Assembly (NCBI GenBank): GCA_003344405.1
Contig: NOWV01000013.1
Location: 186,001-250,000, forward strand
Direction: 5' to 3'
Length of the DNA: 64,000 nt
Source of the DNA: Trichoplax sp. H2
Lineage: Eukaryota
In this document: piece by piece, positions 20,264 through 47,171 of the stretch
Layout of the letters: every line of letters begins with the position of its first letter
Numbering within the stretch: position 1 is the first letter of the stretch
Translations under genes and position numbers: made by a program
Notes under the pieces: generated by a model
The model's database searches: none
What the model was told of the DNA's origin: nothing
What the model saw: only the letters and a program-made list of their open reading frames with translations

Positions 20264-23200
20264 ATGTCTAGCACTGTCAAGAAAAGAAAAATAGCTCCCA
20301 TATCGTTTAGCGAAAAGGTGGCAAAGAAAGCCTCACTTGACAATGATGGCTGGAATAGAATTTTCCATAATCCAAAGCTACTACTAATTGCTTTGATTGC
20401 TTTCCGAGCAGTCAATGCATGCTGTATACAAACTTCTTATGTTCCTGATGAATACTGGCAGAGTTTAGAAGTTGCACACTATCATACGTTTGGATATCCA
20501 AGAAGTATTCCATCGTTGAATTAGAGCTTTTAATGCTTATGTCTTCGCAGTAATATACATTTTTGCTAGAGACACAGTTACTCTCGAAAAAGTTATCCAT
20601 TCAAGTAATAAGTACATTACTGGATAGGGTGCTTGGGTCCGGTGCCATAATTTAGTGAATAAATTTAAAATTGCACCATCCTTTGTAAGGGTTATAGTAA
20701 AGATAACGTAGTACTTAATGAGTTAAAATTTTTATTCCTTAACTTGTCTTACTTACGGTTATTTATCTTGGGAATGGACGGAGCGTATACGTGGATTTTC
20801 GTATCCGATGCTATTTTCCTTTTTATATGAATTATTAGCCTTTCTTAACATCGACCAAGGGTTCATTATGGTGAGTGTGATGTAGGTTTAGAAAATTTTT
20901 TGTGTATATTGTGATGTTGCATGTACCAATAACTACAATTTAAATTCGTTGAGACCATGTACTTTAGTTTATCGATTGGTTTTACATGTAATGTGTTATT
21001 TACTGTGAGTGCCATTAATAATATAATTTGACATTGCTTACCAACAGATATATTCACCACGCCTTTTACAATCAATATTCGCCGCTGTGGGTGACTTACA
21101 CATTTACAAACTGGCGGAAATATTTTTTGATAATAGTGCAGCTCGATGGACTGTATCCTATAGAACTATTTCAAATTTAATATCATTCTAACTACATTAA
21201 ACCAGTCACAACGGTAATTTCTTTTACTCATTTATGAATAGCTATGTTGCTCTTTAATATCCTGGTTTAACTTTTACTGTATCACGCGAACTCTAACCAA
21301 TTCCTTGGAAACTATAATTACCATTATTGGGTTCTGTTATTGGCCATGGCCTTGGAAAAACGATAAAGAGTAATGATGATTTATTGCAGTTTAAAAACCA
21401 ATATATTAATTATCTGTATAATGATTATAGGAGTCCTAGTTGTAAAATAGCTCTATCGTTCGCTGCCATTGCTTTCATCGTTAGGCCAACTTCAGCAATA
21501 ATATGGTTGCCGTTGTGTATATGGCATATGATATGGCATGCTAAAAACATAAGTAAATTTTTAATTGTGGACGTTATACCCATTGCGTAAGTTTATCTAT
21601 ATTCTTTTATCCTACTTAATAATATTAGTTTCCTAAATTTTAACCACATGAAATGCATATACTCAAAATTATATTTGGAAAACGATTCTAGCTCGATCTT
21701 TCTCTGCTTGTCATTAATTATTGATTACATATTCTACAAGCAGGTTCGTGACATCATATGGTTAATTTTTGGAGATAACTAATCGTATTTTGTTTCCTCT
21801 AATAGCTGCTAATTGGCAGCATTGTGAATACCTCCAATAAATTTATCATTTGTTTTTTGGCAGCTTGTGTTTGTTCAATACAACTTCTTGTATTACAACG
21901 TCTTTCAAAATATTGGGAAATTCTATGGCAGCAACCCCTGGCACTGGTAACAGTCATATTTCGCAGTGATTGTTAACATTGCTTTCTTATTGCATGTACT
22001 CTATGGTTCAAAGCATGTTGGCAAAACAAAATTACTTTATTCTTACATTTTAGGTATTTCAGCCAAGGCTTTTTTGTGGTTGTCGGAACGTTAACAATCC
22101 CTTTCATTGGCGGAGTTTTAAAATCTGGCGTTCGTCAACGTTTTCTAATTTGGATTATATTGTGGGATATCCTCATACATAGGTATTCAAACTCATAACA
22201 ACTTTAGGATTTCGAAAATCTTTAATTTATAATCTGTTCATCGTTGCTGTTTCTACTTAATTTCAAAAAATGTTCCGTTAATAGCTTGCGTTGAAAATAA
22301 ACTCTTGTTTTGCAGTTGTCTCAGCCACAAAGAATTTCGATTTATTCTTTCAATTCTACCGTTTGTACTTTGTTTTTGTGGTAAGTTCCGAATCAATATA
22401 GTACTTACTGTGCATCAATTGCTTGATACCTCAATGAAAATCTGCATGCAAAGTAAAAAATTAAGCTATGCTTGATACAGTAGATTTACCACGGTACTGT
22501 ACACTGATCTATTATATAATAATTATCATCTATAGGATCATATTTGAGCATTATGTGGAAAGTTAAAGACGCGACTGTAACACGCAATCGGCATTCATTT
22601 TGGTGGTTTTTTACATTCTTGTTAACAACAAACATCGCTGCAGCGGCATATACAAGTCGTATTCATCAAAAAGGCACAATAGATGCTATTCATCACATTC
22701 GAAGCATAGGCGAGGTATTCCATGTACTTAGACTAAGCAAATAAATTGTATAATCTATATACTCTATAACTATATGTATTCATATTGAGGCTTACTATTT
22801 TAATATTTTGTAAATATGCAACAGAGACATAACACTGATAGATTTTCCGTAATGTTTTTAATGCCTTGCCACTCTACACCGTTCTATTGGTAAGTAAATG
22901 GCATGTCAATTATCAGGGACTAATTTAAAGACTGCGCAAAAATTAATTTTTAGCGAGTTGGATGTATACGTCAGATTTTTAGTTATTAATAAGATGTTAA
23001 CTGTTCTTAATAAAATAATCACTTTCTTTCAGCTATATTCATAAAAAGATCGAGCTATCGTTCTTAACTTGTCTTCCAAGGTATAATTACAATTGTATTC
23101 TGGTTCTCGTCTTTTTTAATTTATAGTATTCTAGAGAAATCTGATTTAAATGTGCTATATTTAATATTAGTAATAGACCTGGATATATTGATGAGGCTGA

Positions 23201-23638
23201 TCGCTTCTTTTTGGAACCTACATCTTGGCTTAATCGAAAGTTTAATAGCCCTGACACGAACAATGTAGTTCCTCCGAATTGCCTTGTATTTTTTGATAAC
23301 TTAGTTACTGTAAGCTTGAAGATGTGTTATTTGAATTGTTATATAGCAATATGTACTTCAAACCTTGACATCCAATAAGCTAGTCGATTGAGAAATAACG
23401 AACAGTGACAGAAAATTCGAATTACTGATTTATTGCTATCTCTAATTCCAGGTCATACAAACATTTTTAGACAAATATCATTATAAAAAGGTCTGTATTT
23501 TTGTTATGCTTCAATGAAGTATGATGTTACTATCAATCTCTGATTTTCAAACTTCTTATACAGAACAAAAGTTTTTTCCACACCCATTTTCCTGAAGGAA
23601 GGGTAGGCTCAAACGTCATCATACATTGTTTAGAATGA
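20264..23638 (+). CDS. PIGB: GPI mannosyltransferase 3 (PIG-B/GPI10), multi-exon
   Basis: Motifs [105 protein letters not shown]. First exons 20264-20493, 20753-20870, 21048-21152, 21242-21368; stop TGA 23636-23638. Confidence 0.95.
20494..20752 (+). other. U12-type AT-AC intron in PIGB
   Basis: Donor ATATCCAAG, branch site TTCCTTAAC at 20735-20743, ends ...TCTTAC. Splicing restores [10 protein letters not shown]. Confidence 0.88.
21153..21241 (+). other. Probable U12-type GT-AG intron in PIGB
   Basis: Donor GTATCCTAT, branch-like TTTCTTTTAC about 14 nt before the AG, no polypyrimidine tract. Joins [13 protein letters not shown] in frame. Confidence 0.7.
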
Positions 23639-26600
23639 AATTAAATATTTTCAGGCAGTTAGATTTATTTGTGCTTGTAAGGATCATCCCCTTGAACACC
23701 TTTAATTGTAGTTTCCTGATAATATGATATTTTTGAGTAATACAGCAGATACAGAGGCTGTAGATAGTTTTTAGGCTCTGCTAGACCTTTTCTTATCATA
23801 AATCTCCTATACTGTTATATACGAATGATGACATTAATTTCGTACTACATCGACTGATTTGTGTGAAATTTACGCATTCACAACGCAAATCAATCTAAGA
23901 TTAATAATATTATATTATAACTATTGTATCGTTTAATAATCTATAATCATTTGAAACAGTTGTTTCAAAAAAATCTCTCAGCATTCTAACAATACAATGA
24001 TTCTGTGAATAACTTCGCAAGCTTAGGTACAACGTTGGATGTCATGTTTGTCTTTTTTATGATTGCAAATATCATAATATTTAAACAAATCAATTGAGAT
24101 TACAATCGCATTTTAATGATCATTGGATCTGAATAATGTATATATAATTTGTTCTTCAGATTCGGTACTGAAACATTAAATTTCTTTATCCGTTTCTAAA
24201 ATTGCTACTATAACCTGTGATAACATATACTGATGTATTATTGACAAAGATGAGATAATAAAACAAAAATGGATATTTTTCTAGAACAAAATTGGCTCCT
24301 GGCGAGCGATAGTTACATAGCTACATTGGCAATGCTACTGAATAGGAAGATTAGCTAGCGAATGCAGTATTGTTAAGAAGTAAATCGTTAAAAAATATTA
24401 ATCGGTTTACCGCTACAGTTGATTTGATTAATATTAACTCAAAGAAATCATCAGGGTTACGCATATAAATTAGCTATCCTTGCATCAATTTTAGAAAATT
24501 TACGGATGAAATTTAAATTTCAGGATTGATTCATATCCATAAGATTTATGTACTGTATACGTCAATAAGGTTTGTTCAGCAAATCGATTCCATTCAAATC
24601 TCAAATTGGAGCTCATAAATTATCGCAGTATAACCGATCTTTTCTGCAATAGGAAACCTAACGGTGCAGATACGATTCTTCAGCGAATTGTTAAATTTTA
24701 TACATTCTTCATGCAATCGGTAGATATACACGTAGAAGCATTTATCAGATACGATTGAAGTTGTTAGTAGACGTATCAGCACAATTGTCAAAGTTATTAT
24801 GTCAGTTGATCAACTTTTACTCGCTTGTCTATCCTATTTCAATTCTTTACTTTACAGAAATACTAAAATTGATCTATTAACCCTTTTAATGTCATAAATT
24901 TTATAAATTAGTATGATTATGCCTTACTTTATTTTCACACTATCATCTGTTATAGCAGAAAGTGCAGTGCTACGATCATTTATCTTATCTTTCTACCTCT
25001 CTTAACGCAACATCTAGCTATTTCTTGTGATATTTCTACTAAGCAATCAGATTGTCGAAAAGATATAAAAATAAATTCGATATTAAAAGTAATCGTTATT
25101 TTAAGATATACGAAATCAACGATTTTTATTACTTAACTAGGTAGAATGATAGGAATTGTATATATTGTAGATGAGAAGACTATATTTACTATAAAGGTTA
25201 AGAAGTATGAGTATGATTACTTTAAAGGACATGACTATTGTCAAATTTACCTTAATACGGTACTGGCTGCCTACCGTACAGCTAGATTGCAAAAGTCAGT
25301 TTTAAAAAAATTTATCAGTGCAGTATACGGGATTATTTGCTCGTAAGGCCTCTGTCTAAGGCAATTAAGAAGCTTAACGAGAAAGAACTTTATTATGAGA
25401 TGCCTGAGATAAAGTCTTAGTACAACAGGGGCACTTGGTAGAAGGATCGCTCCCTAGAAATTTGTTCTTTATGAAATATTATGTTAAATTCGATATATAA
25501 AGTACTCGACTGGTGCAATCGTTGATAATTAGTGTACGTGTGTGGCTTAAAATTGTTGATCAAATTATCTTTTTGCTAGAGATTTTTGACGCTCCTACCC
25601 TTGAGAGCAGAAAGAGACCAACCGAGGTATTATGATTTGTTTAAAGGTAAGATGAAATGAAATTAACCGCCTGCTTAACAATTAAATCTATTAGTGTATT
25701 AGTAGTCATGCAATGCTTTGATATTGCCGATATAATGATATCGAACAATCATTTTATTGCCGCCATGTATGCAATTTTGTTAAGCCAAACTTCAAAAATA
25801 AGCTACTACTGCCTTATCGATGACCATGATTATTCAATGTTTACTTTCCATGTTTTATCCGATAGTACTATCGCAGGAGGGCACATTTAGCGGTGCAAAC
25901 TACTTACTACCAGCATATGGTACCTATAGTCTATCTTCGGAAGTCAGAAAATAGTTTTAGTCCTAAGGAATAGCCTAGCATAAGATCAAGTTGCACACTT
26001 GACTACGCGACCTTCTACTGCCAGATTATCTATAGCCTCTCTTTAGCGAGAAAAAAATAATGACTTACACTTAAGCTACAGTGTAGCATAGCATTCAATC
26101 AATAACCTGAATTTGCATAATCAAGTAGGGCATTTTTTGTGATCAACAAAATCTCCTTTTGCAGCTTCATAACATACGTACAATACTTGAACTTTTTAAG
26201 AATGAAATATTTCTCTATCCAGCTGATTGAAATGAGCAATTTTATAGCGATGCACAATATATAAAGTACTCGTATAAGACCAAGAAATTAATGCTTATAG
26301 TAAAGTATTTGGATTTGAGAAAGTAAAATTACTAAACTTTATACGTACTGTATAAAGGTTGGAAATTTATAGGAAATTATCGAACAATATATCTGGCAAT
26401 GAATCAAAAGATAAATAGCTTAAAGAGTATTTATTCACGAATTAATATAGTATTACCATGTAAATGTGATTATGAATTGTAGTCGAATAATTGCGTTCTT
26501 TCCACCATATAAAGTTAGGATCATGCGAGTATGGAAAGGTGCGGCGCAATCGACTGTTAATTGCTATATGATTATTTCTACAGTGAAGTCTCTCCAAGGA

Positions 26601-31108: not shown

Positions 31109-32852
31109 ATGGCTACCAAACGAATTACACAAGAAACTTTTGACGCCGTAGTCAAGGAAAATATAGATGATTTCGAGATGGATGCGGAAGAGGCTGTAGA
31201 GGATGCTATTAAACAGTTTGAATCTCAAGGAGTCAATTTAAGTAATATTATTAAACAAGCAGCAACAGCATCCGATGATCAACAATCTGGATCTGAAGCT
31301 CGTCATCCTATTTTAACTGCACTACAACGTATACAAGATAGCTTAAATAATCAATTGCAAGAAAAGAATGATGAAAAATTGCAAGATGCTTGCAAATTAT
31401 TTCAAGAGCAATCATGCCAAGGGGCTGCTTATCGAAATGTTGCCGCAGCTAACGGCGCTTATTCGATCATGTATAAACTTTGCCAAAGTGTAATCAACAA
31501 TCCTTCCAGCCTTTCGATAGCCTTGCGTACCATGGCTTCACTTATCGATGGCCAACCAGATTTAATGGATAATGTTGGCATTCAATTAATTATGGAAATT
31601 TTAAAGATGCACTTCAATGATTCGTTAATACAGCAAACCGGAATCAACGTTGTTCGCCTTGCGTGTATTATGCATGAAAGCAATCGTCAAAAATTTGTTA
31701 GCTGTGACTTAATTGAACACTTAATTTCGGTTTTACGTCATTTTACGGCTCAAATTGCTGTCATTAAAGAAGCATGTTCAACACTCCGTACGTTAACTTT
31801 AGATGACGATATAAGAGTGCCCTTTGGCAAGGCTCACGAACATGCTAAAATGATAGCTAGTGAATGTAATGGTCTTGAACTCTTAATCGAAGTCATTAAG
31901 TTACATTACCAAGATACAACCATCTATTGTGAAATTTGCTCTACAATTGCTAAATTAGCGGTTAGGAATGAATATTGCCAACAAGTTGTTGATTTAGGCG
32001 GATTAAAATTGGTAACACAAGCCCTAGCAGAAAGAATGGATGAATCGGTAGGTGCTAACTAATCGATAGCTTACTCGTATTAGTCCGGAGTTGGCTGTGA
32101 TGTGCAGTACGGTAACACTAGTAGCAAGGAATTCCGATGGAATAAAGTAATCGTTCTATGATGATAATACTGTAGAATTTTTATATCGTCTACAGTATAT
32201 ACTGTATGAAGTATCTCGCAGTATTGTATATAGACTCTATTATGTTACTCTGATAAATTGATTATTGAACTAAATACTGTAGATGATTGCCGCAAGATCA
32301 TGTTTTCTACTTCGTGCAATCTCTGGCAATGACGATGTCAAGATCGCAATAGTAAATTCTAGCTGCGTATCGTTAATAATAGCCGCTATGGATAGGCATC
32401 CTAAACATATGCATATTGCAGAGCAAGCCTGTGCAGTTTTCGCATCACTTGCATTGAGACATCCGCAACACTGTGCAGAGATTATATCATGTGGTGGTGC
32501 TGATTTCATTTTAAAAGCTATGAAAATTCATGAAGATGTAGAAAGCGTACAGGTTAATATAAATAAAAAATTCTTCTCTTGTCGCATATGTCCTATTGCT
32601 ATTTGAAAAAAATAAGCTTCATGTGCTCTTAATTTCACACGATAGAAACAAGGATGCTTAGCTATTCGTAACATAGTGGCAAGATCTAGGGAATATTGCA
32701 ATACTTTTCTAGAAGCTGGAGCTGAAGCCATTATCCGACAAGCCAGACGAAAGCATAAAAGTTGTGACGATGAGGCGAAAGCGGCATTGCGAGATTTAGA
32801 ATGTGCGGTACAATTAAAGGAATTATGGACTGGATTGCCAACTAATGGATAA
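31109..32852 (+). CDS. ARMC6: Armadillo repeat-containing protein 6, 3 exons
   Basis: KRITQETFDAVVKENIDDFEM...EAVEDAIKQFESQGVNLSNI, LTLDDDIRVPFGKAHEHAK, LAVRNEYCQ, AKAALRDL...LKELWTG. Exons 31109-32047, 32283-32552, 32646-32852. Confidence 0.95.
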
Positions 32853-34573
32853 TTGAATATCTTGGCCAACTCTAATTTCCATACAAATAGCGACGTTTCC
32901 TTTTTCGTAAATAGCATATCTCGCATAGTTTTATTGCCACCAAAAAATATTTAATATATAGTGTATCAGTACTGTAAAATCTTTTTTTAGATCTTTGCAT
33001 ATAAGTACCTTAATTATAGCTATCGTTTGTAAAATTTAAATGGTTATCAATCTACGGAGGTAATGAACGACTTCAATTCTTACACTTTTACCTATGAAAA
33101 CATTTCTACGGTAATCTTGGCAATCTAAATTATAACTTCAATAGCCCTTCTCGAGTTTACCTATCCGAGTGTTATTGTATATAGCTAGAAATAGTTCCTT
33201 TTATTGACTCTTGAATTTGTAATGATATACTATATGTGGAACATAAAGGTATATTTGTTTTATTATCAAGTGCGGATAAAATTTTCGTTCCAACATGGAT
33301 AATTGCTTTCCAGTATAGTGTTACAGAATAGTGTTGACAGTATGTTAAAATTTAGTCCTGTATACGCGAAAATTTTCGTAGATCGCAAATTGCAGGCATT
33401 AATTATTCAATTTGTATATTGCATAATTTATGCTTCCAATAATTCAGTAGAATTTAAGATTATTGTTAGTAATAGAAATCTACTGTAATCTAGAATAATT
33501 GATTTATCTGTAAAAATAAAATTTCAGCGTTAACAAATACTGAGTTTATTTAAATTTTGCAAATCGAGTAATAATTTGCTTTATAAATCCTGTACAAGAG
33601 TCTATTAATTCATAGAAAAACAATGCCTATTTTGCGTATTGACATGCGTACATTCAAATAAATGACGGTTTCTAGCATGCTGACGTGGATATACGAGTAT
33701 GTGATGAATTATTCCCGTTGAAATTATTTATTGTATAAATAATTACACAATCAAGCATCAGTATATAACGCTGGTAGTTCTTGTAGGAAAACGACTTAAA
33801 ACCAATCATCCTATTCGCCCATATATTATAACAATATATGGATATGGTATAATACTGTATATCGGTAAATATTTATATAAATAAGACGAGAAAGAGTTTG
33901 AGCCATAGAACACTTCTTTGGCTATAATGGGTAACAAATTAGCTCTTGTCGTAATCAGGGCGATTAGGAAGTATTTCATTAGAATAATCATAGCCTGAAT
34001 ATTCAATCATCAGGTTTGTTAATGATTAGTTCTCCTTCTATTTAGGTCATGCTTGTACGCATAAACGATCATCCCATAAAGTGTACACGTACAAATAAAT
34101 TACTACATGCATACGCGCATATACATCGGGAATTATTAAAAAAATATGCTATATACGCGTATGTGTACAAATAAACGCTACAGTATACAATCATGCCAAC
34201 TGCTTCGATGAAGGCTTCGTTTTCAGTGCGCAATCTGCATAATGGAGGGAACATGATCTCCCCCTATAATAGTGCAGTATAAATACAATCTTATTATCCA
34301 GATGCCCATCTTTTTTCTCTTTTACCACAGATTTCAATTGTCAAGGTTTTGGTATGGCATTGCACATTGAATCATAATAAAGTAACTATAATAACAGTAC
34401 ATTTACGAGAAGAGCACAAGAAGCACATTCCACTAGGAATAGTTGATTATAGACGTTTGAAAATTGGCGTGCTATGAAGTGAACTGTTATATTTTGTTAT
34501 GGCAAAGTACTTCGTTATAATTATTAAAAGTCACATTAGACGATGGCTAACCTTAGTCAAAGGAGCAGTTTAT

Positions 34574-36430
34574 CTAATATCGGACAATATTACGCTTGGA
34601 TGAAAAGCCAATCCAAATTAATGCAACAAAATACATTGATAAAATAACGATGAAGATGTATCTAACGTAGAAAGGTCGGGCTACAGTACATCGGCCATTG
34701 CTGTAAATGACAGAATATTTAATTTAGTCGAATTTCCTTCACTAAAAGAATGAAATCATGTAAATGCAAATGTATACAACTTGCCTTGGACTACTTGCAG
34801 CGGGATAAATTAATAAAAATTTGACCTTTAAGCAATCGTTATCCTGAACTATCACATATTTTTCAGTACCACTCCTACGTCACACAGTAAGCAGCAATCA
34901 CAATTTACATTTAATACTTGACTAAATCTTTTGATGTATAATTTACAAATAAAATAACTCTAAATAGTCTCCACCAAATATAAACAGCAATTACTTATTT
35001 TGATTTGCAAGAATTCGAGGATGCTTTATAACTTCACAAACAGCAACACATGAGATAGATTTGGCAATCATGCTTTTATCCCATGTAGAACCGGTCGTAG
35101 AGAAATTTAAGGAAACATCCAAATCAGTTGATAAATAAGTTCCTTCACCAAATAATGATCTCTATCGCATAAGAATGGCAACTTTATTAATATTGATAGA
35201 CAGTAGGATCAGCGATATCTCATACAAAAAGTTACAGTTCTTTTTTTACTTCTGATCGTGACTCGTATACAAATTGCAATTTCAACTTACATTATTTAAA
35301 TGTGATAAAAGACCAACATGTAGAATGGAGAAGAAATTTTCGACACCACTGCCATGAAATCCATAAAAAGAACCATACTGGCTCTTAAGTTCGTCAAAAC
35401 GACTGCTAGAACTTTTTCCTTTATAGATTATATCAAAAATTAAGCTAGGGCGGGTACCATTACGAAAGCCAGTTGCGGTTAGAAGCTCTTCCAACTGGGC
35501 AGTACGAATATACGAGCCAATAAGAAAAGAATTATACGTATATAATTATCAAATTATTAACGGCTAAGACATAGATAACATCGCCCAGTTATATATATCA
35601 TGCACTGCTAGTAAGGACTGCTTATAGAGAATTCTTCTTGATTTACGGTAAATATTGTACAGTATTTTGGTAAGGATATGACTAACCTTAGTATTGGGTA
35701 AGATCTTTAGGTGTACGGAAGTGCTATCTTCAACTAGTAGCCATTCTAAAAGCTCAATAGAATGAGCCGATAGACGAGTTTCTTCCTGAAGTAGTTCGCC
35801 AATGCCTGGGATTTGACGAAATGATTCTCTCTACATTTATGAAGATGTAGTATACGTACTTTAGTTTAGCAAATGTTGATCTTACATTTTACAAATGTCA
35901 TAACATGAACGAGGCAGAAAGTTACTAGTGGATAATGCGATTTTGTTGATAATTAATTATTATCTTACGTACTCTACTTGTATTGAAGTGATTAACTTAT
36001 CCTTTTATACGAATTTGCAGGTCATTAAATCTTAAGAGGTAAAGTATTGTTGTACGTGGTAAGCGATCACTATTAATGTCATCAGTGTCTCTGACTTCAA
36101 ATCAGCCTATTGAGATTTGCTACCCCATTCAAGGCTTGAAATAATTTGTTGCGACTACAATATTTTGCGTTGATTAAAACTAATTTTATTGTTGTAATAA
36201 CTGCAAGTATTTAAATGTAGTCTGTAACAGGATAAGTAGTAGAGTGATTACAATTCCGTACTTACCAATGAATCGATCTGTTTCTCCCCAAACCTGATGT
36301 AAGTTTGTGGGAAAGGACGTAAAACGCTGTCAAAACGAAAACTTCTTAATGCTGCACTAAAAAGACTGATCTTGAGGTCAGTAGCCAATCTGTCTCTCTC
36401 AATGGTCAAGCGTAACTTAGTCCTCAACAT
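34574..36430 (-). CDS. PARP16: Mono-ADP-ribosyltransferase PARP16 (tail-anchored ER ART), 6 exons
   Basis: Exons 36430-36266 (DLKISLFSAALRSFRFDSVLRPFP), 35830-35687, 35494-35291 (GFHGSGVENFFSILHVGL), 35161-34995 (SLFGEGTYLSTDL...VAVCEVI), 34874-34785 (EKYVIVQDNDCLKVKFLLIY), 34700-34574 (C-terminal TM YIFIVILSMYFVALIWIGF). Start codon uncertain. Confidence 0.92.
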
Positions 36431-37785
36431 GTCGTCGTTATTGCATTTGTAGATCAAATTCAAGGAGACTACTAGGTTTGTTGATCATACTCCAAATATA
36501 TCGATGGAGGAGATTTACAAGGGCATTTCTCTCTCTTTTCTCTCCTACACTGATTGAAATGCTTTTAATCTACAACGATACCTTTCAATGCTCTCTAAAT
36601 CCTCTAGATAATTGTAATTTGTTAACAAACGCGATAAAAGAACTAGACTGAGCTGATAGTATTTGACAGATCGATTAAATTGCTCGTTCAATATTATTAC
36701 TGTGTTTACTACTGTAGTTGGACACTGATAAAATCTCTTTTCCTCCACTATGATACTTGTGAGTCTGCTAAGTGCTAAATAATACTGGAGATCATCTGTT
36801 CACACAACTGATAAAAACAGCCAAACTTATCGAAAATACAGTAGAGCAGTTTTAGAAGGTTAGATAATAATATTGATTAGCTAATTGAAGCTGATAAGAT
36901 TTCTCCTTATCTATTTCTACCCTATATTAAGCACTTTGAAATCAACTCAGTACTCAAGATAATCAGTTAATACAATCGATCAAAACAACTAGAGTGAAGT
37001 TATCAGAGATAGAGTAATTTCGATAATTTCAGATAGCATTTGCTGTGGAATTGTCAATAAATCATCATTGAAAGTTGTTGCTGAATAGCATCGTCAGGCA
37101 GTCCGTTCAGTAAAAGCTTTGCAAACATCTAGTCTGCTAGGACAATCTTTTATATATATTGTACGTATACTGAAACAAAAGTATCACGAGCAGGGTGTAG
37201 GACTCGTTTTGAGTAGAAGTGTTACTATTCTGGCACAGAGCAGACTGAGACTGATAGAATGCTATAGCAAAAACTCTCATCACCAAGTTTTACTATGAGC
37301 ATATTGCTGGCCTAAAGTATATACCATACTCTAGTCCAGTTGTGCACTGGCACTGGATGTTACCACATCATGATATGACATTATATTGCTACAATTCATA
37401 CCAGGCACTTTGCATTTTTAATTTCTTTCCCTTGTTCATACACTACGATAGAAAAGGTGTTTACTTTATACTTTATTATACTGTATAGAGCCATTTGCTA
37501 CTAGTAACTCCGGAGCAAAGGTTGGTCGAGCTAACTCCTAATACAACTCGTGTTTCCAATTACAGCATTTTCTATAGTATGCTTTTACGATTATAGCACT
37601 GTTCTATACTGTACAGAACTATAGAGTCTATAGACACATTGGTAGGCTACACCACTCCACTATTGTTGCTGTACTAGCCGGCGAGTAAAGCTGTTAACAC
37701 ATCTTGTCTACCATCAAAATCGAGGAGCAATTCGTTTATTGACTATAATTTATCTGCTATATCATCAGCCAAGCACGCAAAAGCA

Positions 37786-38001
37786 ATGATTCGAGCTCCA
37801 ATAAGGTTAAACTTTGGTCAGGTCATTTTTGCTATGGTCCTTGGTGTAGTCAGTGGAATCTACATCTTTAAACCGATGCTTCAACAGCAGCTTCTGAATG
37901 AATTAACTGAAAAAGAATTAAACCAAAGTCATCAAGATCACAAAAACAACGAGCCCAAGCAATCAGCACTGACTGATGTAAAACAAGATGAGGAAGTGTA
38001 A
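37786..38001 (+). CDS. PIGBOS1: PIGBOS1-like microprotein (71 aa, one TM)
   Basis: RLNFGQVIFAMVLGVVSGIYIFKPML closely matches the recalled human PIGBOS1 N-terminus (RLTFAQLLFATVLGIAGGVYIFQPVF), followed by a charged Q/E/K tail. Confidence 0.85.
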   Translation: MIRAPIRLNFGQVIFAMVLGVVSGIYIFKPMLQQQLLNELTEKELNQSHQDHKNNEPKQSALTDVKQDEEV

Positions 38002-39745
38002 TAGCAATGATTTCAGTAGATGAGATGCGGTTAACAAATGTTAAGGATATTATTGCTTTTAAATGCTTATTGATTGAGCACATAACGCAAATATTGTACA
38101 GCCGGCTGCATGGAAAAGAAGAAACTAACAAAGTAGATTATGGTGTGCTTCTGCCTTCCACTGTGCAAAATTGTACGGATCTTTAAGTAATGGTCAATAC
38201 ATACCTAGCATGATGTGTGCTTAACCAGCTAATGGCAACTGACATTTTAATCCAGACAAGGAAGAAATTAAGATTTTAAAGATTATAGAATATTATAGTG
38301 TAATATACGAGTCTAAATATCTGCAGCAAAAACAAACGTGCGTGCAGCATAAAACACTGGTGTGCAGTCGAGATTGCATCAAGACCAAAGCTTGATTAAT
38401 CATCTATTTGCAAGTACAGTATGGGGCTATACGGAGCACTTGTAATAACAGACTAATTTTAAGTATTTTACCTTACGTAATATACAGTATATCTTCAACT
38501 TTTCATGCTAGTGGTTAGCGATTCCATTCCTACTTATTTAACTAGTCTTTGTCATTGCATAATCATAATAACTGCCTACTCAATGCCATGAACTTCTAGA
38601 TCTCTAAGTCCATGTCAATGAATAGTAATGCGTAGTGCCGTAATTTTATATTCCGTGTCAATAGAAGATTTTAAATTGGAGCTAAAGCAATTTTGGAAAT
38701 TATGACATCTCAGTTTAGAAAATCAAGCTTGACCTTAATATGTGTCTCTGATGGATCGTGATTACGATCTCGCTTGTCTTGGCATTCGATATTCATAGTT
38801 TTACTAGTTTTGGCAATCTTGTTATCAATGTTATTTTATTCAGATCTCACTTTACTTCAATATACATTTCGTTATTTATTATGGGATGCAAAAGGTCTAA
38901 TTATTCTCTTGCAGTGTCAACCTGCTCGAAATTGTCCTACCGTACGAGCATATTGTATGTTGCAGTGTGAAATGCAGTCATATGCATTAGATGGTATGTT
39001 ATCATAGCCATTGCATAAAGCATAGTGTCGAATAGATGATAGAACTATACTTACTATCAGCGTTGTTCACAATTAAATGTTTAATGTTATGCTAAAATGG
39101 CCTAATCATAACATAATGTTATAAAATCTTATATATAGTGTACAAACATGAACTACTAGATGCTAGTCCACGGTACAAGTCAGTACATTGTAGGCCATAA
39201 CAAACGCCATATAGCTACAGGACGCAGGCAGAAGGATATAAGAATGAATTATGGATAATAATGATGTGCTGGTATTGGAAAGCAAATAAAATTTGATGAT
39301 AAAAGATTTTATTAATTATACACCATGATATAATAAATGAATAAAAACGTGTATTATCATGCAATCTTGACATTTGCTTACAACAAATTGTGCTGGAGAT
39401 TGCAAATTATGGTTATTATACAGTCATTTTGAAGATGTTGGGCTTAAAATGCAAGTGCAAGTAAGGTATCCTGGATGAGATACAAGATATTCTTACCTGA
39501 ACCTTATCACCTAAACTTTTTAAAATTATAAAATGATCAAAGCCCGTATTTCAATTACAGTTAACCTTATACGGAAGACAAAGAGCCATAGTTTCATAGT
39601 GATGTACCAAGACAAAGTAAATCATGACCTAAACCTTACATATATTTAAGACATTACAGTGCTATCAAGAGTTAAGGGAATACTTTAATATTATCGAAGA
39701 TATAATAAGCAAATCCTTCAAAGTAAAACAATTGCAAGCTATCTC

Positions 39746-40632
39746 TCAGCCAATTAATAGTAGAATATGATTTCTTCGTTTGTCGATCAGAATACAGTAT
39801 ATTCTCATGCTTGTTAACCACAGCGAATTCATTCGAAACCAATAATTGGATAACTTAGAGCTCTTTTGAACCGCATCATTCTTATTTATCTTTTCATCTA
39901 CTACCTGCTTCTTTTCATACATCCGAGCTAACCGAGCGTTATCAGTATGTCTATTGGCAGAAATAAAGTTGTAGATGGTTCTGGTTGAATATTGTTTTTT
40001 TATTTTTCTTTTCATCTGTTAACACATTTGTAGTATTTTTACTCTTTCCCATTAGCCTACCCAACCTAAATGTATCCTCATACCCATTCCTTTTTCAGGA
40101 AATGGATTCTCTATTCCTTTTGAATCTACTTGCGTCTCATCTCCTTTCTTTCTACCCACTACTCAACTCGCCGTTTTCTTGCTCTTTTCGGATATCCATA
40201 CCAATCAAGATTGATCGGTATGTTTCTTTTCAGTTAAAAAATCCCTAGATAATGCGTCTTTCTTGTGGATCTTATCTAGATCGATCTTCTTTCACTTTTA
40301 CCAGTATGTCTATTTTCAGAGGTTGAATGCTTCAATAATTGGATATCCTTTTGGATCGCCTCTATCGCTTGTCCTTCCATTTATTTATTACTCAGCTCCA
40401 TGGACTACTAGATGCACCTAGTAGTCCATGCCAGTTTATTATATTCTTACTCTTTCCAGACATCCATGTTAACAAGGTCTTTGCAGCGTATCCAGTTGTC
40501 CGAAATCCGCTATTAGAACATTCGGAGTTATTTTTGGTTCCTTTTTTGTTGTTTTCCTTTCTGCCTGTTACCTAATTCATAAAATTCTTGCTTGTTCCAG
40601 TTATCTACTCTAGCCAAGACTTATTAACACAT
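39746..40632 (-). pseudogene. Decayed 3' half of copy A
   Basis: Homologous to ~44190-45095 but with TGG->TAG stops at 40605-40607 and 40572-40574 plus further disruptions. Confidence 0.85.
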
Positions 40633-40825
40633 CTACGGATTGCAGTAAAATGAATCGACATTCTACTGTATTATATCAATGTAGCCATACGTATAAAATT
40701 ATACATTATAATATAGATGTAATAACAGATGCATTTATTCTGTTCCGTCAGACAGTAGCATCCTCTTCTATATCTCTGTAGCCTTCTACCTGTATACTGT
40801 GTTCTCATTTTCAGATAGACCTGCT

Positions 40826-42909
40826 TCATATTCTCCTATCACCCTTGTCATTTGTCGTTGCCGTTTGTTTCTTAAAAAGTTTCTTACACAGATTACGCTG
40901 TATACTATGTACAGAACCTTCAACTTTAGCCTGAATAAGTAGTTTACTTACCTCTTCAGTTAGCTTAGATAATTCATTGTTCATGAATTCAACCCACTGT
41001 TGAGTGGCAAGGTCGTATTTAGTCTTATTGTAATAAGTTGTGTCTGTAAATCCTTGCAAAAGTGCGCTGCACTTGTTTAATGGGTCATGGCTAACTTCAT
41101 GTCTTAGACATTCCAAGTATTTTTTTGTATTAGAAATTAACTCAGATAAATGTTTCTGTAAAAGTAACTTACTAGCAACACCATTATCACTCGGTTTGTC
41201 CATGTTATGGGTGTCGTTTTCGCATTTTAATGACGTCTTATTAGCAACAATATGCTTAGAAGATCCTTGAAGCATAGGAAATACAATCATGATATATATA
41301 CCAAATAAGCAGACAATCACAGCTACAATAATGTAGCTTGAAGGTGCTAGTAACATTTTCTTGTGCTCAGCGGTAACGACTTTTTTATTTTGATTGATTG
41401 ATTCAGTTAGAGCAGACTTGCTAGAAACAATACCACTCGATTCCGTTATTTCGCTATCATACAAAAAATCAGAACCTGCCTCCTTCACATCCGGTACGAT
41501 CTGGTTACTTAATGTTATATCATTATCGGTAGTTAATTCTACAGCCTCGTCTGGTTGAACGATAATCGTAGACCCATTCTCGGATTTATTATTAGAAATT
41601 GCAAAAGCTTCGATTTGACGGCATTGCATATCTTGGTCTACGTCGGCGAGGGTACCGCTATCCACTAAGCAATAACTACCTGCATCACTGATTATAGCGT
41701 TAGCTTTATTATCAGCGTCGAGTATAGTATTCATGATATCGCTGTTGAAAATATTGCGCCCATCTAAACTACTATGACTTTTCAAGATAATATAGTCACT
41801 TGTATCTAATGATGTATCCACGTCCGAATCAACTTGGCCCTAATAAAAATTAAAATTAGAATACTTAGCGTCATTATCGTTTAGTAATTTACACTATGTT
41901 TACACGTCAAAATCTAAAGTACAGTACATATACGCGTGTAGTTTAACACATAATCCGCAAAGTAACGGAGAAATGATCAGAGGGTTTTAAAATAAAACAG
42001 ACAAGCAATCATAACCACTGAAATTAGGAACGTGGCAAGCTCTTGTCAGCCAAAACTGAAGTAAAATTGATATCAAGATCAAAGTAATAATTAATTATTA
42101 TTGGAGATGATGATCAATCGCTGAATTTATTTGTAAGGCAATTTTAACTATCAATCGGATGAGAGAGATATCGCTATCCATGATAATAATGTACTGTACA
42201 ATGTACGCGTCCTTTTTAACTGATCATAATCATCAATAAGTTTTAACATATAAAATGACTAGCTAGAAAGAGAAGCAATTTGATTTCTCCAAGTCATTGC
42301 TACTGTTTACTGACAAGCGGATCAGACGGTAATATCATCCACGATATACATACAGTAGGTCATTTTCTGGCATTGAGATTTTCCCTTGACTAATATCATT
42401 ACATTTAGCCAGAGGAGGATCTCACCATTGCAATACCAAACATGTCCTTGTTACAGATCATGAACGTGCTATGGTACAAAATAATTCAGCTAGAAAGGAG
42501 AAGTGATTTGATCTTTTCATTCCTGACAAACAGATCGCATTATTATGACTGTGGTCACTGTGATGACTGTAAATAACATTTCTACTATACTTAAGAAGGA
42601 AAACTTAACGACTGATTCCTAATAACCTGACAATGAAACTACGTACCGTCATAATTATTAATATACTAATAGAACCCACGCTCGTTATACTTCGAGTATT
42701 GCATTATATCCGCTGTCATGAAAACTAATTTGATCTCGCCGCGCGCCATGGCTGACAAACAGAGTACATACCATAAAATTGTATCAATTCTTATTAATTA
42801 CAATCGGTAAAAAGTAAAGGTTTAAAGCAGTTAATCTCGATAATAGGACAATAAACTACATAAAGTAGATCTTTACGGAATCATTTCGATCTCCAGTTCT
42901 ATCCTTCAT
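40826..42909 (-). CDS. Single-pass membrane protein, truncated copy A (~348 aa); CCPG1/PBXIP1-like candidate
   Basis: Exon 42909-42877 (MKDRTGDRNDS|gtaaag) plus exon 41839-40826. Acidic N-terminus with DTSDYIIL, TM YIIVAVIVCLFGIYIMIVFPML, helical luminal part. The last ~30 aa come from sequence absent in copy B. Confidence 0.6.
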
Positions 42910-44179: not shown

Positions 44180-47171
44180 TCAGCCGCGTCGAAATATTTT
44201 TTTGCTGCCTTCTTTGGCCTTATTGAAGATCCGATTAATAGAAGAATATGCTTTCTTCATTTGTCGATTATAATATATTCCCATGTTTCTTAACCACAGT
44301 GAATTCCTGGGAAACCAATGGTTGGATAACGTTGAGCTCTTTTGAGCCGCACCATTCTTGTCCGTCTTTTCATCTACTACCCACTTCTTCTCAAGTATCT
44401 GTGCTAGCCGAGCTTCGTCAGTATGTCCATTTGTAGGAAATGAAGTTTTAGGCGATTTTGGCTCTGATTTCTCTTGAATATTGTTTTTATTAGTTTTCTT
44501 TTCATCTGTTAATTTAGTTTTCTTTTCATCTGTTAATTCAGTTTTCTTTTCATCTGTTAATATATTTGTAGTATCTTTACTCTTTCCCATTAGCCAACTC
44601 AACCTAAACTTATCGGCATACCCCATTCCCTTCTTTCTACCCATTACCCAGCTTGTCGCTTTCTTGCTTTTTTTGGATATCCATGTCAACCAGGATTGAG
44701 AAGTGTGTTTATTTTCAGCTAAAAAATCCCTAGATGATTCGTCCTTCTTATGTATCTTATCTGCATCGATCTTCCTTTCACTTTTATCAGCAGGTCTATT
44801 TTCAGGGGTGGAATGCTTCGATAATTGGCTATCTTTTTGAATTGTCTCTTTATAGCTAGATGGACTACTAGATGCACCTAGTGGTCCACGCCAGTTTATA
44901 ATATTCTTACTCTTTTCAGATATCCATGTTAACCAGGTCTTTGTAGCGGATCCAGTTCTCCGCAACCAGCTGTTGTTATTAGGTTCTGTGTTATTTTTGA
45001 TTCCATTTTTGTTGTTTTCCTTTGTACCTGTTACCCAACTCATAAAATTCTTGCTTGTTCCAGTTATCCATTCTAGCCAAGTCTTATCAGCACATTTTCT
45101 TTCAACTTTAGCCTGAATAAGTAGTTTGTTTACTCCTTTAGTTAGTTTAGATAATTCATTCTCTATGGAATCAATCCACTTTTGAGTGGCAAGGTTGTAT
45201 TTAGTCTTATTGTAATAATTTGTGTCTGCAAATTTTTGCAATAGTGCGTTGCACTTGTTTAATGGGTCATTGCCAACTTCATGCCTTAGACATTCCACGT
45301 ATTCATTTATATTATAGATTAACACAGAAAAATGTTTCTGTAAGAATACCTCATTAGTAACACAAATATCGCTCGGTTTTTCCACGTTGTGGGTGTCGTT
45401 TTCGCATTTTAATGACATCTCATTGGCAATAATATGCTTAGAAGATCCTTGAAACATAGGAAACATAATCATCATGCTAATCAAGCAGACAATCACAGCA
45501 ATAATGGTGTAGCTTGAAGGTGCTAGTAACTCTTTCTTGCACCCAATAGTAACGACTTTTTTATTTTGATTGATTGATTCAATTAGGGCAGACTTGTTAG
45601 GAATAATGCCACTCGGTTCCGTCATTTCGCTTTCAGACAAAAAGTTAGAATCTGCCTCCATCACATCCGGTACAATCTGGTTAACTGATGTTGTATCATT
45701 ATCGGTAGTTAATTCTACAGCCTCGTCTGCCTGAGCAATAATCGTAGACTCATTTTTCTCAGATTTATTATCAGAATTTGAGGAAGCTTCGATTTGACTG
45801 CATTGCGTATCTTGGTCTACATCGGTGAGGGTGCTGTCATCCACTAAGCAATAACTATCTGCATCACTGATTATAGCTTTATCGTCAGTATTGAGTAAAA
45901 AATGAGTGATGTCGCTACTGGAAATGTTAGGGCTATCTAAGCTACTTTGCGTGTTTAAAACAAAATAGCCACTTATATCTGATGATGAGTCCACGTCCGA
46001 ATCAATTGGATCCTAATAAGATCAAAATTTAAAAAAGAGAACTTAGCGTCATTATCGATTAGTAATTTACGCTACGTTTACATATAGAAATCTAAAAGTG
46101 CAACACGTATACGCGCATAGTTGAACACCGAAGGACAAACAACATCGATAACGCTGAGCAAAATACCGATAATCCCCAAACGAACAGGGAAATGATCAGA
46201 GGATTTTTAAAATAAAGCAGACAAACAATCATAACCACTGAAACTAGAAACATGGCAAGCTCTTGTCAGCCGAAACTGAAGTAAAATTGATATCCTGATC
46301 AAAATAATAATTAATTGTTACAGGAGATGATGATCAATTGCTGATCTTATTCGTAGGGTAATTTTAACTATCAATCAGATAAGAGGGGTATCATTATCCA
46401 TTGCAATAGTTAAAATATAATATACTGTACAATGTGCATGTCCTTTTTAACTGATCATCAATAAGTTTAAGTTTTAATCTACAAAATGACTAGTTAAAAA
46501 GAGAACTAATTTGATTCCTTGATATCATTGGTGCTGTCTGCTGACAAGCGGATCAGACGGTAGCATCATCTACAATATAATGTACATTTATTATACGTAT
46601 AGTAGGCATTTCCTGGAATTGAGATTTTCCCTCGACTATATAATTATAATTAACCTAAGAAGAAGGATCCCACCATCCATTGCAACGTCATACGAGTCCA
46701 TGTCCTTCTTGCAGATCATGAACATGCTATCGTATAAAATGAGTCTGCTAGAAAGGAGAAGTGATTCGATCTTTCTATTCCTGACAAGCGAAGTGCATTA
46801 CTACTACTGTAGTCACTGTGATGGCTGTCGAAAGTATTTCTACAATACGTAGAAAGGAAAGACTTAACGATGGATTCGCAATAATCTGATAGTAAATTAC
46901 GTACCGTAAATTATAATATACTAGTAGAACCAATGCTCGTTATACTTTGCGTACTGCATTATATCTGCTTGTGACAAAAATTAATTTAATCTCTTCGCGC
47001 CAGGACTAACAAGGAGAGTTGCATACAAATATATTAATTCTTAATTGCTAGTTACTGTAGTTACAATCGGTAAAAATCAAAGATTTAAACAGTTAATTTC
47101 AATAATATGACAATAAACTATATAACGTAGATCTTTATGGAATCATTTCGATCTCTAGTTCTATTCTTCAT
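44180..47171 (-). CDS. Single-pass membrane protein, full-length copy B (~620 aa); CCPG1/PBXIP1-like candidate
   Basis: Large open exon 46012-44180 behind a ttattag acceptor; likely first exon from ATG 47171. DSSSDISGYFVL LIR-like motif, one TM, Trp-rich amphipathic repeats, three 24-nt repeats (LTDEKKT) at ~44490-44565. Confidence 0.7.

What the first reader, a model, noticed from the sequence alone, without database searches (positions are those of the whole stretch)
37786..38001. PIGBOS1 microprotein linked to PIGB, but not in the vertebrate antisense arrangement
Seen: a 71-aa sORF with the PIGBOS1 TM signature ~14 kb downstream of PIGB on the same strand, head-to-head with PARP16. Known: human PIGBOS1 is a 54-aa mitochondrial outer-membrane UPR regulator named for lying opposite PIGB. 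Inference: both the microprotein and its linkage to PIGB are ancient, while the exact arrangement has been shuffled. An sORF this small is easily missed by annotation.
Basis: partly seen in the sequence, partly recalled or inferred. Interest (0 to 1): 0.8.

Follow-up and report, generated by a model that had tools for sequence, protein, structure and literature searches.

The report
Unannotated PIGBOS1 microprotein gene in Trichoplax
A 71-residue membrane microprotein gene in a placozoan genome belongs to the PIGBOS1 family known from humans; it lies near the PIGB gene and back-to-back with PARP16, so it is a new member of a known family in an interesting neighbourhood.

Summary
The 71-aa ORF at 37786-38001(+) is real. 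It matches Pfam PF23670 (PIGBOS1-like) at 52.5 bits against a cut-off of 27. It aligns directly to an annotated lemur PIGBOS1, E 3e-12. It carries all 8 positions conserved across 49 family members. The window is placozoan: its ARMC6 exon is 99% identical to Trichoplax sp. H2. The exact protein is absent from a 15-billion-protein collection, so no source there has predicted it. An RNA run whose contigs are spliced over the neighbouring genes covers the sORF with an unspliced contig starting at 37520.

The stated neighbourhood is correct. A GT22 (PIGB-type) gene ends 13.5 kb upstream on the same strand. PARP16 is divergent, and 403 bp separate the two transcript contigs.

The protein's antiquity is already known: the Pfam family includes fungi and protist-labelled transcriptomes, and fly CG34210 is in print.

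An unidentified metazoan contig (L001) has PIGBOS1-like head-to-head with PIGB. Linkage to PIGB is therefore probably ancestral in animals, and the placozoan order is rearranged.

Function as a mitochondrial outer-membrane anchor that modulates ER stress is inferred from human data only. This is a new member of a known kind, of moderate interest.

The parts
37786..38001 (+). PIGBOS1-like coding sequence, 71 aa plus stop, uninterrupted
   Evidence: ORF. (PF23670, 52.5 bits). (37% identity, E 3e-12, to annotated lemur PIGBOS1). (all 8 conserved positions present).
37813..37869 (+). Codons for residues 10-28: the single transmembrane helix with the invariant G20-x3-G24 and Y26-I27-F28, followed by K29-P30
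   Evidence: best 19-residue Kyte-Doolittle window is 10-28, mean 2.07. AlphaFold2 helix 10-51, with pLDDT about 90 over residues 11-30; invariant columns.
37520..37785 (+). Transcribed leader upstream of the ATG (minimum 5' UTR), containing one 5-codon uORF at 37579
   Evidence: X1 contig record 4 begins at 37520 and is colinear with the genome to beyond 39999; a single uATG. Contigs cannot prove the true start or the strand.
37117..37519 (.). 403-bp gap between the PARP16 and PIGBOS1 transcript contigs: the putative shared bidirectional promoter
   Evidence: X1 record 3 ends at 37116 and record 4 starts at 37520. TATA-like run at 37148-37159, and no ERSE or UPRE. The promoter function is inferred.
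34262..37116 (-). PARP16 gene, ATG at 36430, divergent from PIGBOS1
   Evidence: ARTD15_N 67 bits, and PARP catalytic exons at E 1e-4 and 5e-4; six CT..AC or CT..GC joints in RNA run X1; the hydrophobic C-terminal tail in frame 34577-34723(-) is consistent with a tail anchor.
20264..24263 (+). GT22 mannosyltransferase gene read as PIGB, same strand, ending 13.5 kb upstream of the sORF
   Evidence: Glyco_transf_22 on three exons; spliced contigs in X1 and X15, last exon to 24263; ortholog-level tblastn matches to L001's GT22 gene. Separation from paralogs not directly tested.
38002..39350 (+). Probable 3' UTR. The first canonical AATAAA signals on the + strand are at 39285, 39332 and 39340
   Evidence: contig continuous; poly(A) signal positions. 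The extent is inferred, because the contig also runs into a convergent minus-strand gene.

Best explanation
The ORF is the placozoan (Trichoplax) ortholog of PIGBOS1, a single-pass membrane microprotein.

Anatomy, shown here: a short basic N-terminus (R3, R7); one hydrophobic helix at about residues 10-28 carrying the family-invariant G-x3-G face and the Y-I-F-x-P membrane-exit motif; a further helical stretch to about residue 51; and an acidic, disordered tail.

Gene, shown here: the whole coding sequence is one uninterrupted block. It is transcribed at a contig depth similar to its neighbours. It is divergent from PARP16, with at most 403 bp between the two transcript contigs. It lies 13.5 kb downstream of PIGB on the same strand.

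Function, inferred from human PIGBOS (Chu et al. 2019): the helix acts as a signal anchor in the mitochondrial outer membrane with the C-terminus in the cytosol, where it contacts an ER partner (CLCC1 in human) at ER-mitochondria contacts and dampens the unfolded-protein response.

Evolution, inferred: PIGBOS1 and PIGB were neighbours in the animal ancestor. The head-to-head form survives in vertebrates and in the L001 metazoan. In the placozoan lineage a local rearrangement moved PIGBOS1 a few genes away, where it now shares a divergent promoter region with PARP16, itself an ER-membrane regulator of the same stress response.
For: Family: PF23670 at 52.5 bits against a cut-off of 27. BLASTP to annotated Microcebus PIGBOS1 gave 37% identity, 65% positives, E 3e-12. 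G20, G24, Y26 and I27 are invariant and A16, S23, F28 and P30 are at least 90% conserved in 49 sequences; all 8 are present here.

Relatives: 63-67% identical proteins P0002 and P0129, both PF23670. ARMC6 from unnamed close relatives is 73-75% identical, so the microprotein diverges at about the pace of an ordinary protein.

Topology features: Kyte-Doolittle mean 2.07 for residues 10-28, and a C-terminal net charge of -4. AlphaFold2 gives a helix over 10-51 with pLDDT about 90 for 11-30.

Expression: run X1 is RNA, since its contigs skip GT..AG introns in PIGB, CKS, ARMC6 and PARP16. Its 2949-nt contig covers 37520-39999 and beyond at depth 17.5, against 15-25 for the neighbours. No Rfam family (best hit E 0.82) and no tRNA explains the transcript.

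Neighbours.

Linkage: L001 has a PIGBOS1-like ORF (40.5 bits), preceded by a polypyrimidine tract and CAG acceptor, about 250 bp from the divergent ATG of a GT22 gene. Four of that gene's exons match the window's gene at E 1e-11 to 6e-4. Human PIGBOS1 is on the opposite strand of PIGB, with the whole smORF in exon 2 (passages).

PARP16 as a tail-anchored ER protein that ADP-ribosylates PERK and IRE1alpha: abstracts of PMC8148056 and PMC10389827 in the listing.
Against: No localisation, topology, partner or translation data exist for the placozoan protein. The residues equivalent to human 30-32, which are needed for CLCC1 binding, are Q33-Q34-Q35 here against E-Q-Y in the lemur protein by the alignment, so only the middle one is kept. 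I could not check whether a CLCC1 ortholog exists in this genome, because no genome is held.

Contigs give neither strand nor true ends. The X1 contig also runs into a convergent minus-strand gene (frames 39675-41839), so part of its cover could belong to that gene's 3' UTR.

The shared intergenic region holds none of the vertebrate-type ER-stress elements I scanned for. Three fungal-looking loci (L003-L005) show no GT22 gene in the flanks held (up to 10 kb a side; L003 has only 545 bases on one side) by tblastn with placozoan exons; this is a weak test, but linkage is not seen outside animals. PIGB was not directly separated from its GT22 paralogs (searches were uninformative).
Confidence: 0.85

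Rival explanations
1. The ORF is a chance open frame whose hydrophobic stretch spuriously matches a short, low-information Pfam model, and it encodes no protein.
For: ORFs of this length are common here: 25 in the window against about 8 in shuffles. An equally long antisense ORF overlaps it at 37868-38083. The Pfam model is only 54 positions long, and two membrane-protein families give weak hits at E 0.13.
Against: The score is twice the curated cut-off. The match includes the non-hydrophobic positions G20, S23, G24, Y26 and P30. There is direct pairwise significance to an annotated PIGBOS1. Full-length relatives are 63-67% identical. The locus is transcribed. The antisense ORF has no family.
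Confidence: 0.03
2. The gene is a true PIGBOS1 ortholog, but its proximity to PIGB in Trichoplax is coincidence and says nothing about ancestral linkage.
For: Three unrelated genes (CKS, ARMC6, PARP16) lie between them and the orientation differs from vertebrates. Fungal-looking loci show no GT22 neighbour. L001's taxon is unknown, so it could be close to vertebrates.
Against: Under a random-placement null, a specified gene falls within +/-17.5 kb of another with probability about 35 kb / 98 Mb = 3.6e-4. The hypothesis was fixed in advance by the vertebrate arrangement. L001 repeats the linkage in a contig whose DDX46-like gene has an 842-codon uninterrupted exon, unlike the many-exon vertebrate gene as I recall it. 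The window also holds PARP16 and a DUF167 gene. Their human counterparts, PARP16 and C15orf40, lie on chromosome 15 like PIGB and PIGBOS1 (locations recalled, except PIGB/PIGBOS1, which are given).
Confidence: 0.1
3. The upstream GT22 gene is not PIGB but a paralog (ALG9, ALG12 or PIGZ), so the claimed PIGB linkage is void.
For: Pfam PF03901 covers all four paralogs. The PDB sequence searches and the ESM Atlas gave no discriminating name.
Against: Exons match L001's GT22 gene at 40-55% identity, with one at 25%. That is far above what I would expect between GT22 paralogs, and the L001 gene occupies the position divergent from a PIGBOS1-like ORF that PIGB holds in vertebrates. The N-terminal loop sequence resembles the PIGB/GPI10 type as I recall it (recall, not a call).
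Confidence: 0.08
4. RNA cover over the sORF comes from the 3' UTR of the convergent minus-strand gene, and the sORF itself is silent in this species.
For: The single X1 contig runs from 37520 past 39999 into the minus-strand gene's frames, and contigs carry no strand. Minus-strand poly(A)-like signals occur at 38835 and 38875.
Against: The minus-strand gene's last frames end near 39675, and it has AATAAA-type signals at 39684 and 39308. A UTR reaching 37520 would be about 2.1 kb long and would stop just 403 bp from the PARP16 transcript end. The ORF is conserved in relatives recovered from assembled runs (P0002 on 4 contigs, P0129 on 2).
Confidence: 0.05

Closest known systems
Human PIGBOS1 (PIGBOS), a 54-aa mitochondrial outer-membrane microprotein (Chu et al. 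2019, PMC6814811; passages read)
   Same: Same Pfam family. One N-terminal transmembrane helix followed by a polar C-terminus. The whole coding sequence lies in one exon. It is linked to PIGB. The GxxxG face fits the reported self-association.
   Different: 71 aa against 54, with a longer acidic tail. It is not on the strand opposite PIGB but 13.5 kb downstream on the same strand. Its divergent partner is PARP16. Of the CLCC1-binding residues 30-32, only the middle position is conserved (by the lemur alignment). No upstream non-coding exon was seen in the one contig.
Drosophila CG34210, 74 aa, listed as the counterpart of PIGBOS1 (PMC13240139, table row seen)
   Same: An invertebrate microprotein of similar length (74 against 71 aa), assigned to the same family in print.
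   Different: I did not see its sequence or gene neighbourhood, so neither identity nor linkage could be compared.
PIGBOS1-like ORF of metazoan contig L001 (52 aa)
   Same: PF23670 member at 40.5 bits with an identical GxVSGIYIFKP core, next to a GT22/PIGB gene.
   Different: It is head-to-head with PIGB, with about 250 bp between the ATGs, and is preceded by a splice acceptor, which is the vertebrate-like layout. Its downstream neighbour is a DDX46-like helicase, not PARP16.
Fungal and protist-labelled PF23670 members (e.g. Rhizoctonia, Ascobolus, Coniophora; MMETSP Tiarina and Cylindrotheca)
   Same: They share the conserved helix and the YIFxP motif. Most listed ones are 50-90 aa (range 50-114; the Coniophora model is 165 aa).
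   Different: The tails are unrelated in sequence. The loci examined have an intron inside the coding sequence (L004 and L005 by eye) and no GT22 neighbour. The Coniophora model is fused to a dsRBD. The MMETSP labels may reflect contaminants.

Membership tests
PIGBOS1-like (Pfam PF23670) | Profile match above the curated gathering score | tested here: met
   52.5 bits against 27, E 5.5e-14.
PIGBOS1-like (Pfam PF23670) | Conserved core A-x3-G-x2-S-G-x-Y-I-F-x-P | tested here: met
   All 8 positions that are invariant or at least 90% conserved in 49 sequences are present: A16, G20, S23, G24, Y26, I27, F28, P30.
PIGBOS1-like (Pfam PF23670) | Microprotein size with a single N-terminal transmembrane helix and a polar C-terminus | tested here: met
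   71 aa. Hydropathy peak at residues 10-28, mean 2.07, and a tail with net charge -4. AlphaFold2 gives a helix over 10-51 and disorder after residue 52.
PIGBOS1-like (Pfam PF23670) | Mitochondrial outer-membrane signal-anchor topology (N-terminus in, C-terminus cytosolic) | not testable with these tools
   Known for the human protein only. It needs imaging or protease protection.
PIGBOS1-like (Pfam PF23670) | Binding of ER protein CLCC1 through residues just after the helix, with an effect on the UPR | not testable with these tools
   Human residues 30-32 are required. The equivalents here are Q33-Q35, with only the middle one shared with lemur E-Q-Y. The presence of a CLCC1 ortholog was not checked because no genome is held.
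PIGBOS1 locus as defined in vertebrates ('PIGB opposite strand') | Lies on the strand opposite PIGB, divergent from it | tested here: not met
   It is on the same strand, 13,523 bp downstream of the PIGB transcript end, and no second copy lies antisense to PIGB. This is a feature of the locus name, not of the protein family.
PARP16 (ARTD15) | ARTD15 N-terminal helical domain, PARP catalytic domain and a C-terminal tail anchor | tested here: met
   ARTD15_N at 67 bits. The PARP catalytic exons score E 1e-4 and 5e-4, each below cut-off as a fragment. A hydrophobic stretch lies in the last-but-one exon frame 34577-34723(-).
PIGB (GPI mannosyltransferase 3) | GT22 (Alg9-like) fold family | tested here: met
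   PF03901 on exons at 34.4, 24.7 and 19.5 bits, covering profile positions 2-39, 158-202 and 338-384.
PIGB (GPI mannosyltransferase 3) | Orthology to PIGB rather than ALG9, ALG12 or PIGZ | tested here: inconclusive
   The PDB and Atlas look-ups gave no discriminating names. Indirect support comes from the 40-55% identical exons in L001's GT22 gene, which is paired with a PIGBOS1-like ORF.

The most novel reading that the evidence does not exclude
PIGB, PIGBOS1 and PARP16 are remnants of one ancestral animal gene cluster. The placozoan PIGBOS1-PARP16 divergent pair is a co-regulated ER-stress module, made of a mitochondrial outer-membrane microprotein and an ER tail-anchored ADP-ribosyltransferase driven from one 400-bp promoter. 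This would mean PIGBOS1's role in the unfolded-protein response predates bilaterians and is functionally coupled to PARP16. No paper in the library searched holds both names (0 papers).
Probability: 0.12. Interest if true: 0.6.

Novelty: new member of a known kind. Interest (0 to 1): 0.35.

Why it matters
PIGBOS1 was described in 2019 as having 'no paralogs or homologs'. Pfam has since grouped relatives from animals, fungi and protists.

This locus adds a transcribed, unannotated member from Placozoa, a basal animal lineage. Together with L001, it shows that linkage to PIGB outlasted large evolutionary distances even where the antisense layout was lost.

That makes two questions testable. Is the PIGB-PIGBOS1 neighbourhood kept by shared regulation or by inertia? 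Does the new divergent pairing with PARP16, another membrane-bound UPR regulator, reflect co-regulation?

It is also a concrete case of a conserved sORF missed by genome annotation.

Tried and rejected
1. Whole-genome searches for PF03901, PF23670 and PF00644 failed because no genome is held. Copy number and the presence of CLCC1 in the genome are therefore unknown.

2. Earlier-findings look-ups by word, sequence and place returned nothing.

3. The PDB sequence search with the microprotein gave 0 hits at E <= 10.

4. Homodimer prediction (two copies) gave 'no answer', score 0.02 against a mark of 0.32, and the tool did not use my alignment. It counts neither for nor against self-association.

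5. Attempts to tell PIGB from its GT22 paralogs were uninformative: PDB searches with three exon frames (the only hit was TMEM260 at E 0.19) and the ESM Atlas on exon 1 (only generic Glyco_transf_22 clusters). A control-genome route through the genome search was not possible because the record is not held.

There were no ER-stress elements, only a TATA-like run, one CRE half-site and two CCAAT boxes, at or below the window-wide rate. Placozoan UPR elements are unknown, so this does not exclude co-regulation.

7. Rfam (best hit mir-7927, E 0.82, 21 bits against 75) and tRNA scans of 36000-40600 were empty.

8. My guess that frame 60861-61094 is DUF167 failed at E <= 0.01. The next exon frame confirmed the family.

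10. Paper search was badly posed because PIGBOS was not required. It was redone. The search for PARP16 with '15q22' found 0 papers, so PARP16's human location is from recall.

11. dN/dS was not possible because no DNA of the close relatives was obtainable. X3's variant list was truncated ('93 more not shown'), so I make no statement on polymorphism inside the ORF.

12. The taxon of L001 was not determined.

Full report
**Observation**

The window has an ATG at 37786 and a TAA stop at 37999-38001 on the + strand, giving a 71-codon ORF. ORF length alone means little. The window holds 25 ATG-ORFs of 71 aa or more, against a mean of 8.2 in 20 shuffles, and an equally long antisense ORF overlaps this one without matching any Pfam family. 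The evidence that counts is homology.

**Identity**

- Pfam PF23670 'PIGBOS1-like' matches residues 3-53 at 52.5 bits (cut-off 27, E 5.5e-14).
- BLASTP against a protein that NCBI names PIGBOS1 in Microcebus murinus (P0133) gives 37% identity, 65% positives, E 3e-12 over 54 residues.
- In an alignment of 49 family members, G20, G24, Y26 and I27 are invariant, and A16, S23, F28 and P30 are at least 90% conserved. The window's protein has all eight.
- Hydropathy peaks at residues 10-28 (mean 2.07). The N-terminus carries R3 and R7, and the C-terminal part has net charge -4.
- AlphaFold2 with that alignment gives one helix over 10-51, with pLDDT about 90 for residues 11-30, falling afterwards, and a disordered tail. 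Mean pLDDT is 66.7.
- A profile built from the 49 sequences finds only this frame in the window among the 5766 open frames of 15 aa or more scanned in the window and five loci. The next window frame scores E 3.5, so there is no second or decayed copy, in particular none antisense to PIGB.

**Organism and annotation status**

The long ARMC6 exon at 31109-32059 is 99% identical to ARMC6 of Trichoplax sp. H2. The next hits, at 75% and 73%, are unnamed, and named animals follow at 46% or less. The window is therefore placozoan.

The exact 71-aa sequence is not in the 15-billion-protein collection. The word-indexed search found no near-identical cluster, only P0002 at 67% identity. The gene is thus unannotated in the sources that collection covers.

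P0002 and P0129 are 63-67% identical over the shared part and both carry PF23670. They are most simply orthologs from other placozoan lineages (inference). Their divergence is similar to that of ARMC6 from the unnamed relatives, which argues for purifying selection. I could not show that the two sets come from the same organisms.

**Expression**

Of the four runs laid on 20000-39999:

- X1 is RNA. Its contigs skip introns with GT..AG or CT..AC ends in PIGB, CKS, ARMC6 and PARP16.
- X3 covers everything evenly at about 100x without joints, so it is DNA.
- X2 shows no joints and several of its listed pieces lie outside the exons identified here, so it looks like low-coverage DNA.
- X15 is on record as RNA.

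X1 record 4 (2949 nt, depth 17.5) is colinear with the genome from 37520 to beyond 39999, so it covers the whole sORF without a splice. Neighbouring genes have contig depths of 15-25. X15 shows a depth of 1.02 in the bin 37342-38008, but the contig is not listed.

Contigs give neither strand nor true ends. Record 4 also runs into a convergent minus-strand gene whose frames span 39675-41839. The first + strand AATAAA signals are at 39285-39340, and minus-strand signals lie at 39684 and 39308. The simplest reading is two convergent transcripts meeting near 39.3 kb.

One 5-codon uORF at 37579 lies in the leader. No Rfam family or tRNA explains the transcript.

**Neighbourhood**

| Gene | Strand | Position | Evidence |
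|---|---|---|---|
| GT22 gene read as PIGB | + | ATG 20264, last exon to 24263 | |
| CKS | - | about 26.8-29.1 kb | 82 bits, |
| ARMC6 | + | 31056-34265 | |
| PARP16 | - | ATG 36430, RNA contig to 37116 | ARTD15_N 67 bits, PARP catalytic exons, hydrophobic tail in frame 34577-34723 |
| PIGBOS1 | + | contig from 37520, ATG 37786 | |

The distances are:

- 13,523 bp from the PIGB 3' end to the sORF ATG.
- 17,522 bp from ATG to ATG for PIGB and PIGBOS1.
- 1,356 bp between the PARP16 and PIGBOS1 ATGs.
- 403 bp between the two transcript contigs.

The 403-bp gap is a plausible bidirectional promoter (inference). It contains a TATA-like run but none of the vertebrate ER-stress elements I scanned for.

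**What is already known**

Passages of Chu et al. 2019 (PMC6814811) state the following:

- Human PIGBOS is 54 aa and lies on the strand opposite PIGB on chromosome 15, with the whole smORF in exon 2.
- The transmembrane region is at residues 7-29 and the C-terminus is cytosolic.
- It localises to the mitochondrial outer membrane as a signal-anchor protein.
- It binds ER protein CLCC1 through the C-terminal region, and residues 30-32 are needed.
- It self-associates, and its loss sensitises cells to the UPR.
- It is described there as having 'no paralogs or homologs'.

That last statement is outdated. All 52 proteins found with a family profile carry PF23670. The named ones are a lemur, a bird, about a dozen basidiomycete and ascomycete fungi, and two MMETSP protist transcriptomes. 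The exhaustive HMMER search gave 6 hits at E <= 0.001, including the fungus Coniophora puteana.

A 2026 article lists Drosophila CG34210 (74 aa) against PIGBOS1 (54 aa) in a table (PMC13240139; row seen). The antiquity of the protein is therefore known.

I found no paper holding both PIGBOS and PARP16 (0 papers). Two papers hold PIGBOS and 'invertebrate', and in both I read only the PIGBOS passages. A 2026 preprint on PIGBOS-CLCC1 contains no 'conserv', 'ortholog', 'invertebrate' or 'evolution' word.

**Linkage elsewhere**

A scan of metagenome contigs returned five loci.

L001 is metazoan. It carries a Pao-type retrotransposon pol, an intron-rich GT22 gene and a DDX46-like helicase. Its 52-aa PIGBOS1-like ORF (9971-10126, 40.5 bits) is preceded by a polypyrimidine tract and CAG. 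It sits about 250 bp from the ATG (9717, minus strand) of a GT22 gene, four of whose exons match the window's gene at 25-55% identity, E 1e-11 to 6e-4. This is the 'opposite strand' layout of vertebrates.

L001's helicase gene has an 842-codon uninterrupted exon, unlike the many-exon vertebrate DDX46 as I recall it. L001 is therefore probably not a vertebrate, but its taxon is unknown.

L003-L005 look fungal from their neighbours. They show no GT22 match in the flanks held (up to 10 kb a side; L003 has only 545 bases on one side) (a weak test). L002 is only 2.1 kb long.

Under a random-placement null, the chance that PIGBOS1 falls within 17.5 kb of PIGB in a roughly 98-Mb genome (size recalled) is about 4e-4. 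Together with L001 and vertebrates, this makes ancestral linkage in animals the best reading, with a local rearrangement in placozoans.

The window also holds PARP16 and a DUF167 gene (34.2 bits). Their human counterparts, PARP16 and C15orf40, are on chromosome 15 as I recall, like PIGB and PIGBOS1. That is consistent with an old linkage group.

**Mechanism**

Shown here:

- The family membership, the helix and its motif.
- Transcription of the locus.
- The gene order.

Inferred from human data:

- Insertion in the mitochondrial outer membrane with a cytosolic C-terminus.
- Contact with an ER partner.
- Damping of the UPR.

The invariant G-x3-G fits helix-helix packing and the reported self-association. 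My dimer job gave no verdict, so it counts neither way. The juxtamembrane residues equivalent to human 30-32 are only partly conserved, so the partner may differ.

**Verdict**

This is a new, unannotated member of a known family. The interesting residue is gene order: conserved linkage to PIGB, plus a new divergent pairing with PARP16, another membrane-bound UPR regulator. The main open points are the direct proof that the GT22 gene is PIGB, the strand and ends of the transcript, and any functional data in placozoans.

Noticed in passing
window 20494-20752 (+): The first intron of the PIGB-type gene is a textbook U12-type AT-AC intron. Its 5' end is ATATCC, TTCCTTAAC lies 8 nt before the 3' AC, and it is skipped in RNA runs X1 and X15.
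   Followed up: partly
window 39675-41839 (-) and 44183-46012 (-): Two tandem paralogous genes with no Pfam family. The distal copy is one 610-codon open frame with a hydrophobic segment. The proximal copy is split over four frames relative to it, so it has frameshifts, introns or is a pseudogene, and it is convergent with PIGBOS1.
   Followed up: partly
window 39058-39103: A short element where contigs of all four runs break off into unrelated sequence on both sides, with raised depth in that bin. It looks like a dispersed repeat of about 45 nt inside the putative PIGBOS1 3' UTR. It is single copy in the window.
   Followed up: partly
window 60861-62500 (+): A DUF167 (YggU/C15orf40-type) gene. 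Frame 61834-61989 scores 34.2 bits against a cut-off of 30.9. It is another gene here whose human counterpart is named for chromosome 15.
   Followed up: partly
L001 9717-10126: An unidentified metazoan contig with a 52-aa PIGBOS1-like ORF head-to-head with PIGB, about 250 bp between the ATGs, a splice acceptor just before the sORF, and a tail-to-tail DDX46-like helicase with an 842-codon exon.
   Followed up: yes
P0004 (Coniophora puteana), P0137/P0149/P0132 and L002: A fungal gene model fuses a dsRNA-binding motif to a PIGBOS1-like domain, possibly two merged genes. A separate clade labelled as ciliate or diatom transcriptomes has an N-terminal extension ending in a basic RRSG-type stretch before the conserved helix; the labels may reflect contaminants.
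   Followed up: no
window 36431-37116 (-): The PARP16 RNA contig is colinear for 686 nt upstream of its ATG, which is an unusually long unspliced leader for such a compact genome, or else unresolved upstream structure.
   Followed up: no
window 19539-19712 (+) and 20216-20236: Loose ends of X1 contigs at 20216 and 20236 read, by eye, like the frame at 19539-19712. PIGB therefore has an upstream exon, or an upstream gene reads into it.
   Followed up: no
window 8311-10152 (+), 50337-55500 (-), 58314-59405 (-): Other genes in the window: a multi-Kazal (follistatin/agrin-like) gene, a voltage-gated CLC chloride channel, and a glycosyltransferase family 8 gene with a 364-codon exon.
   Followed up: no
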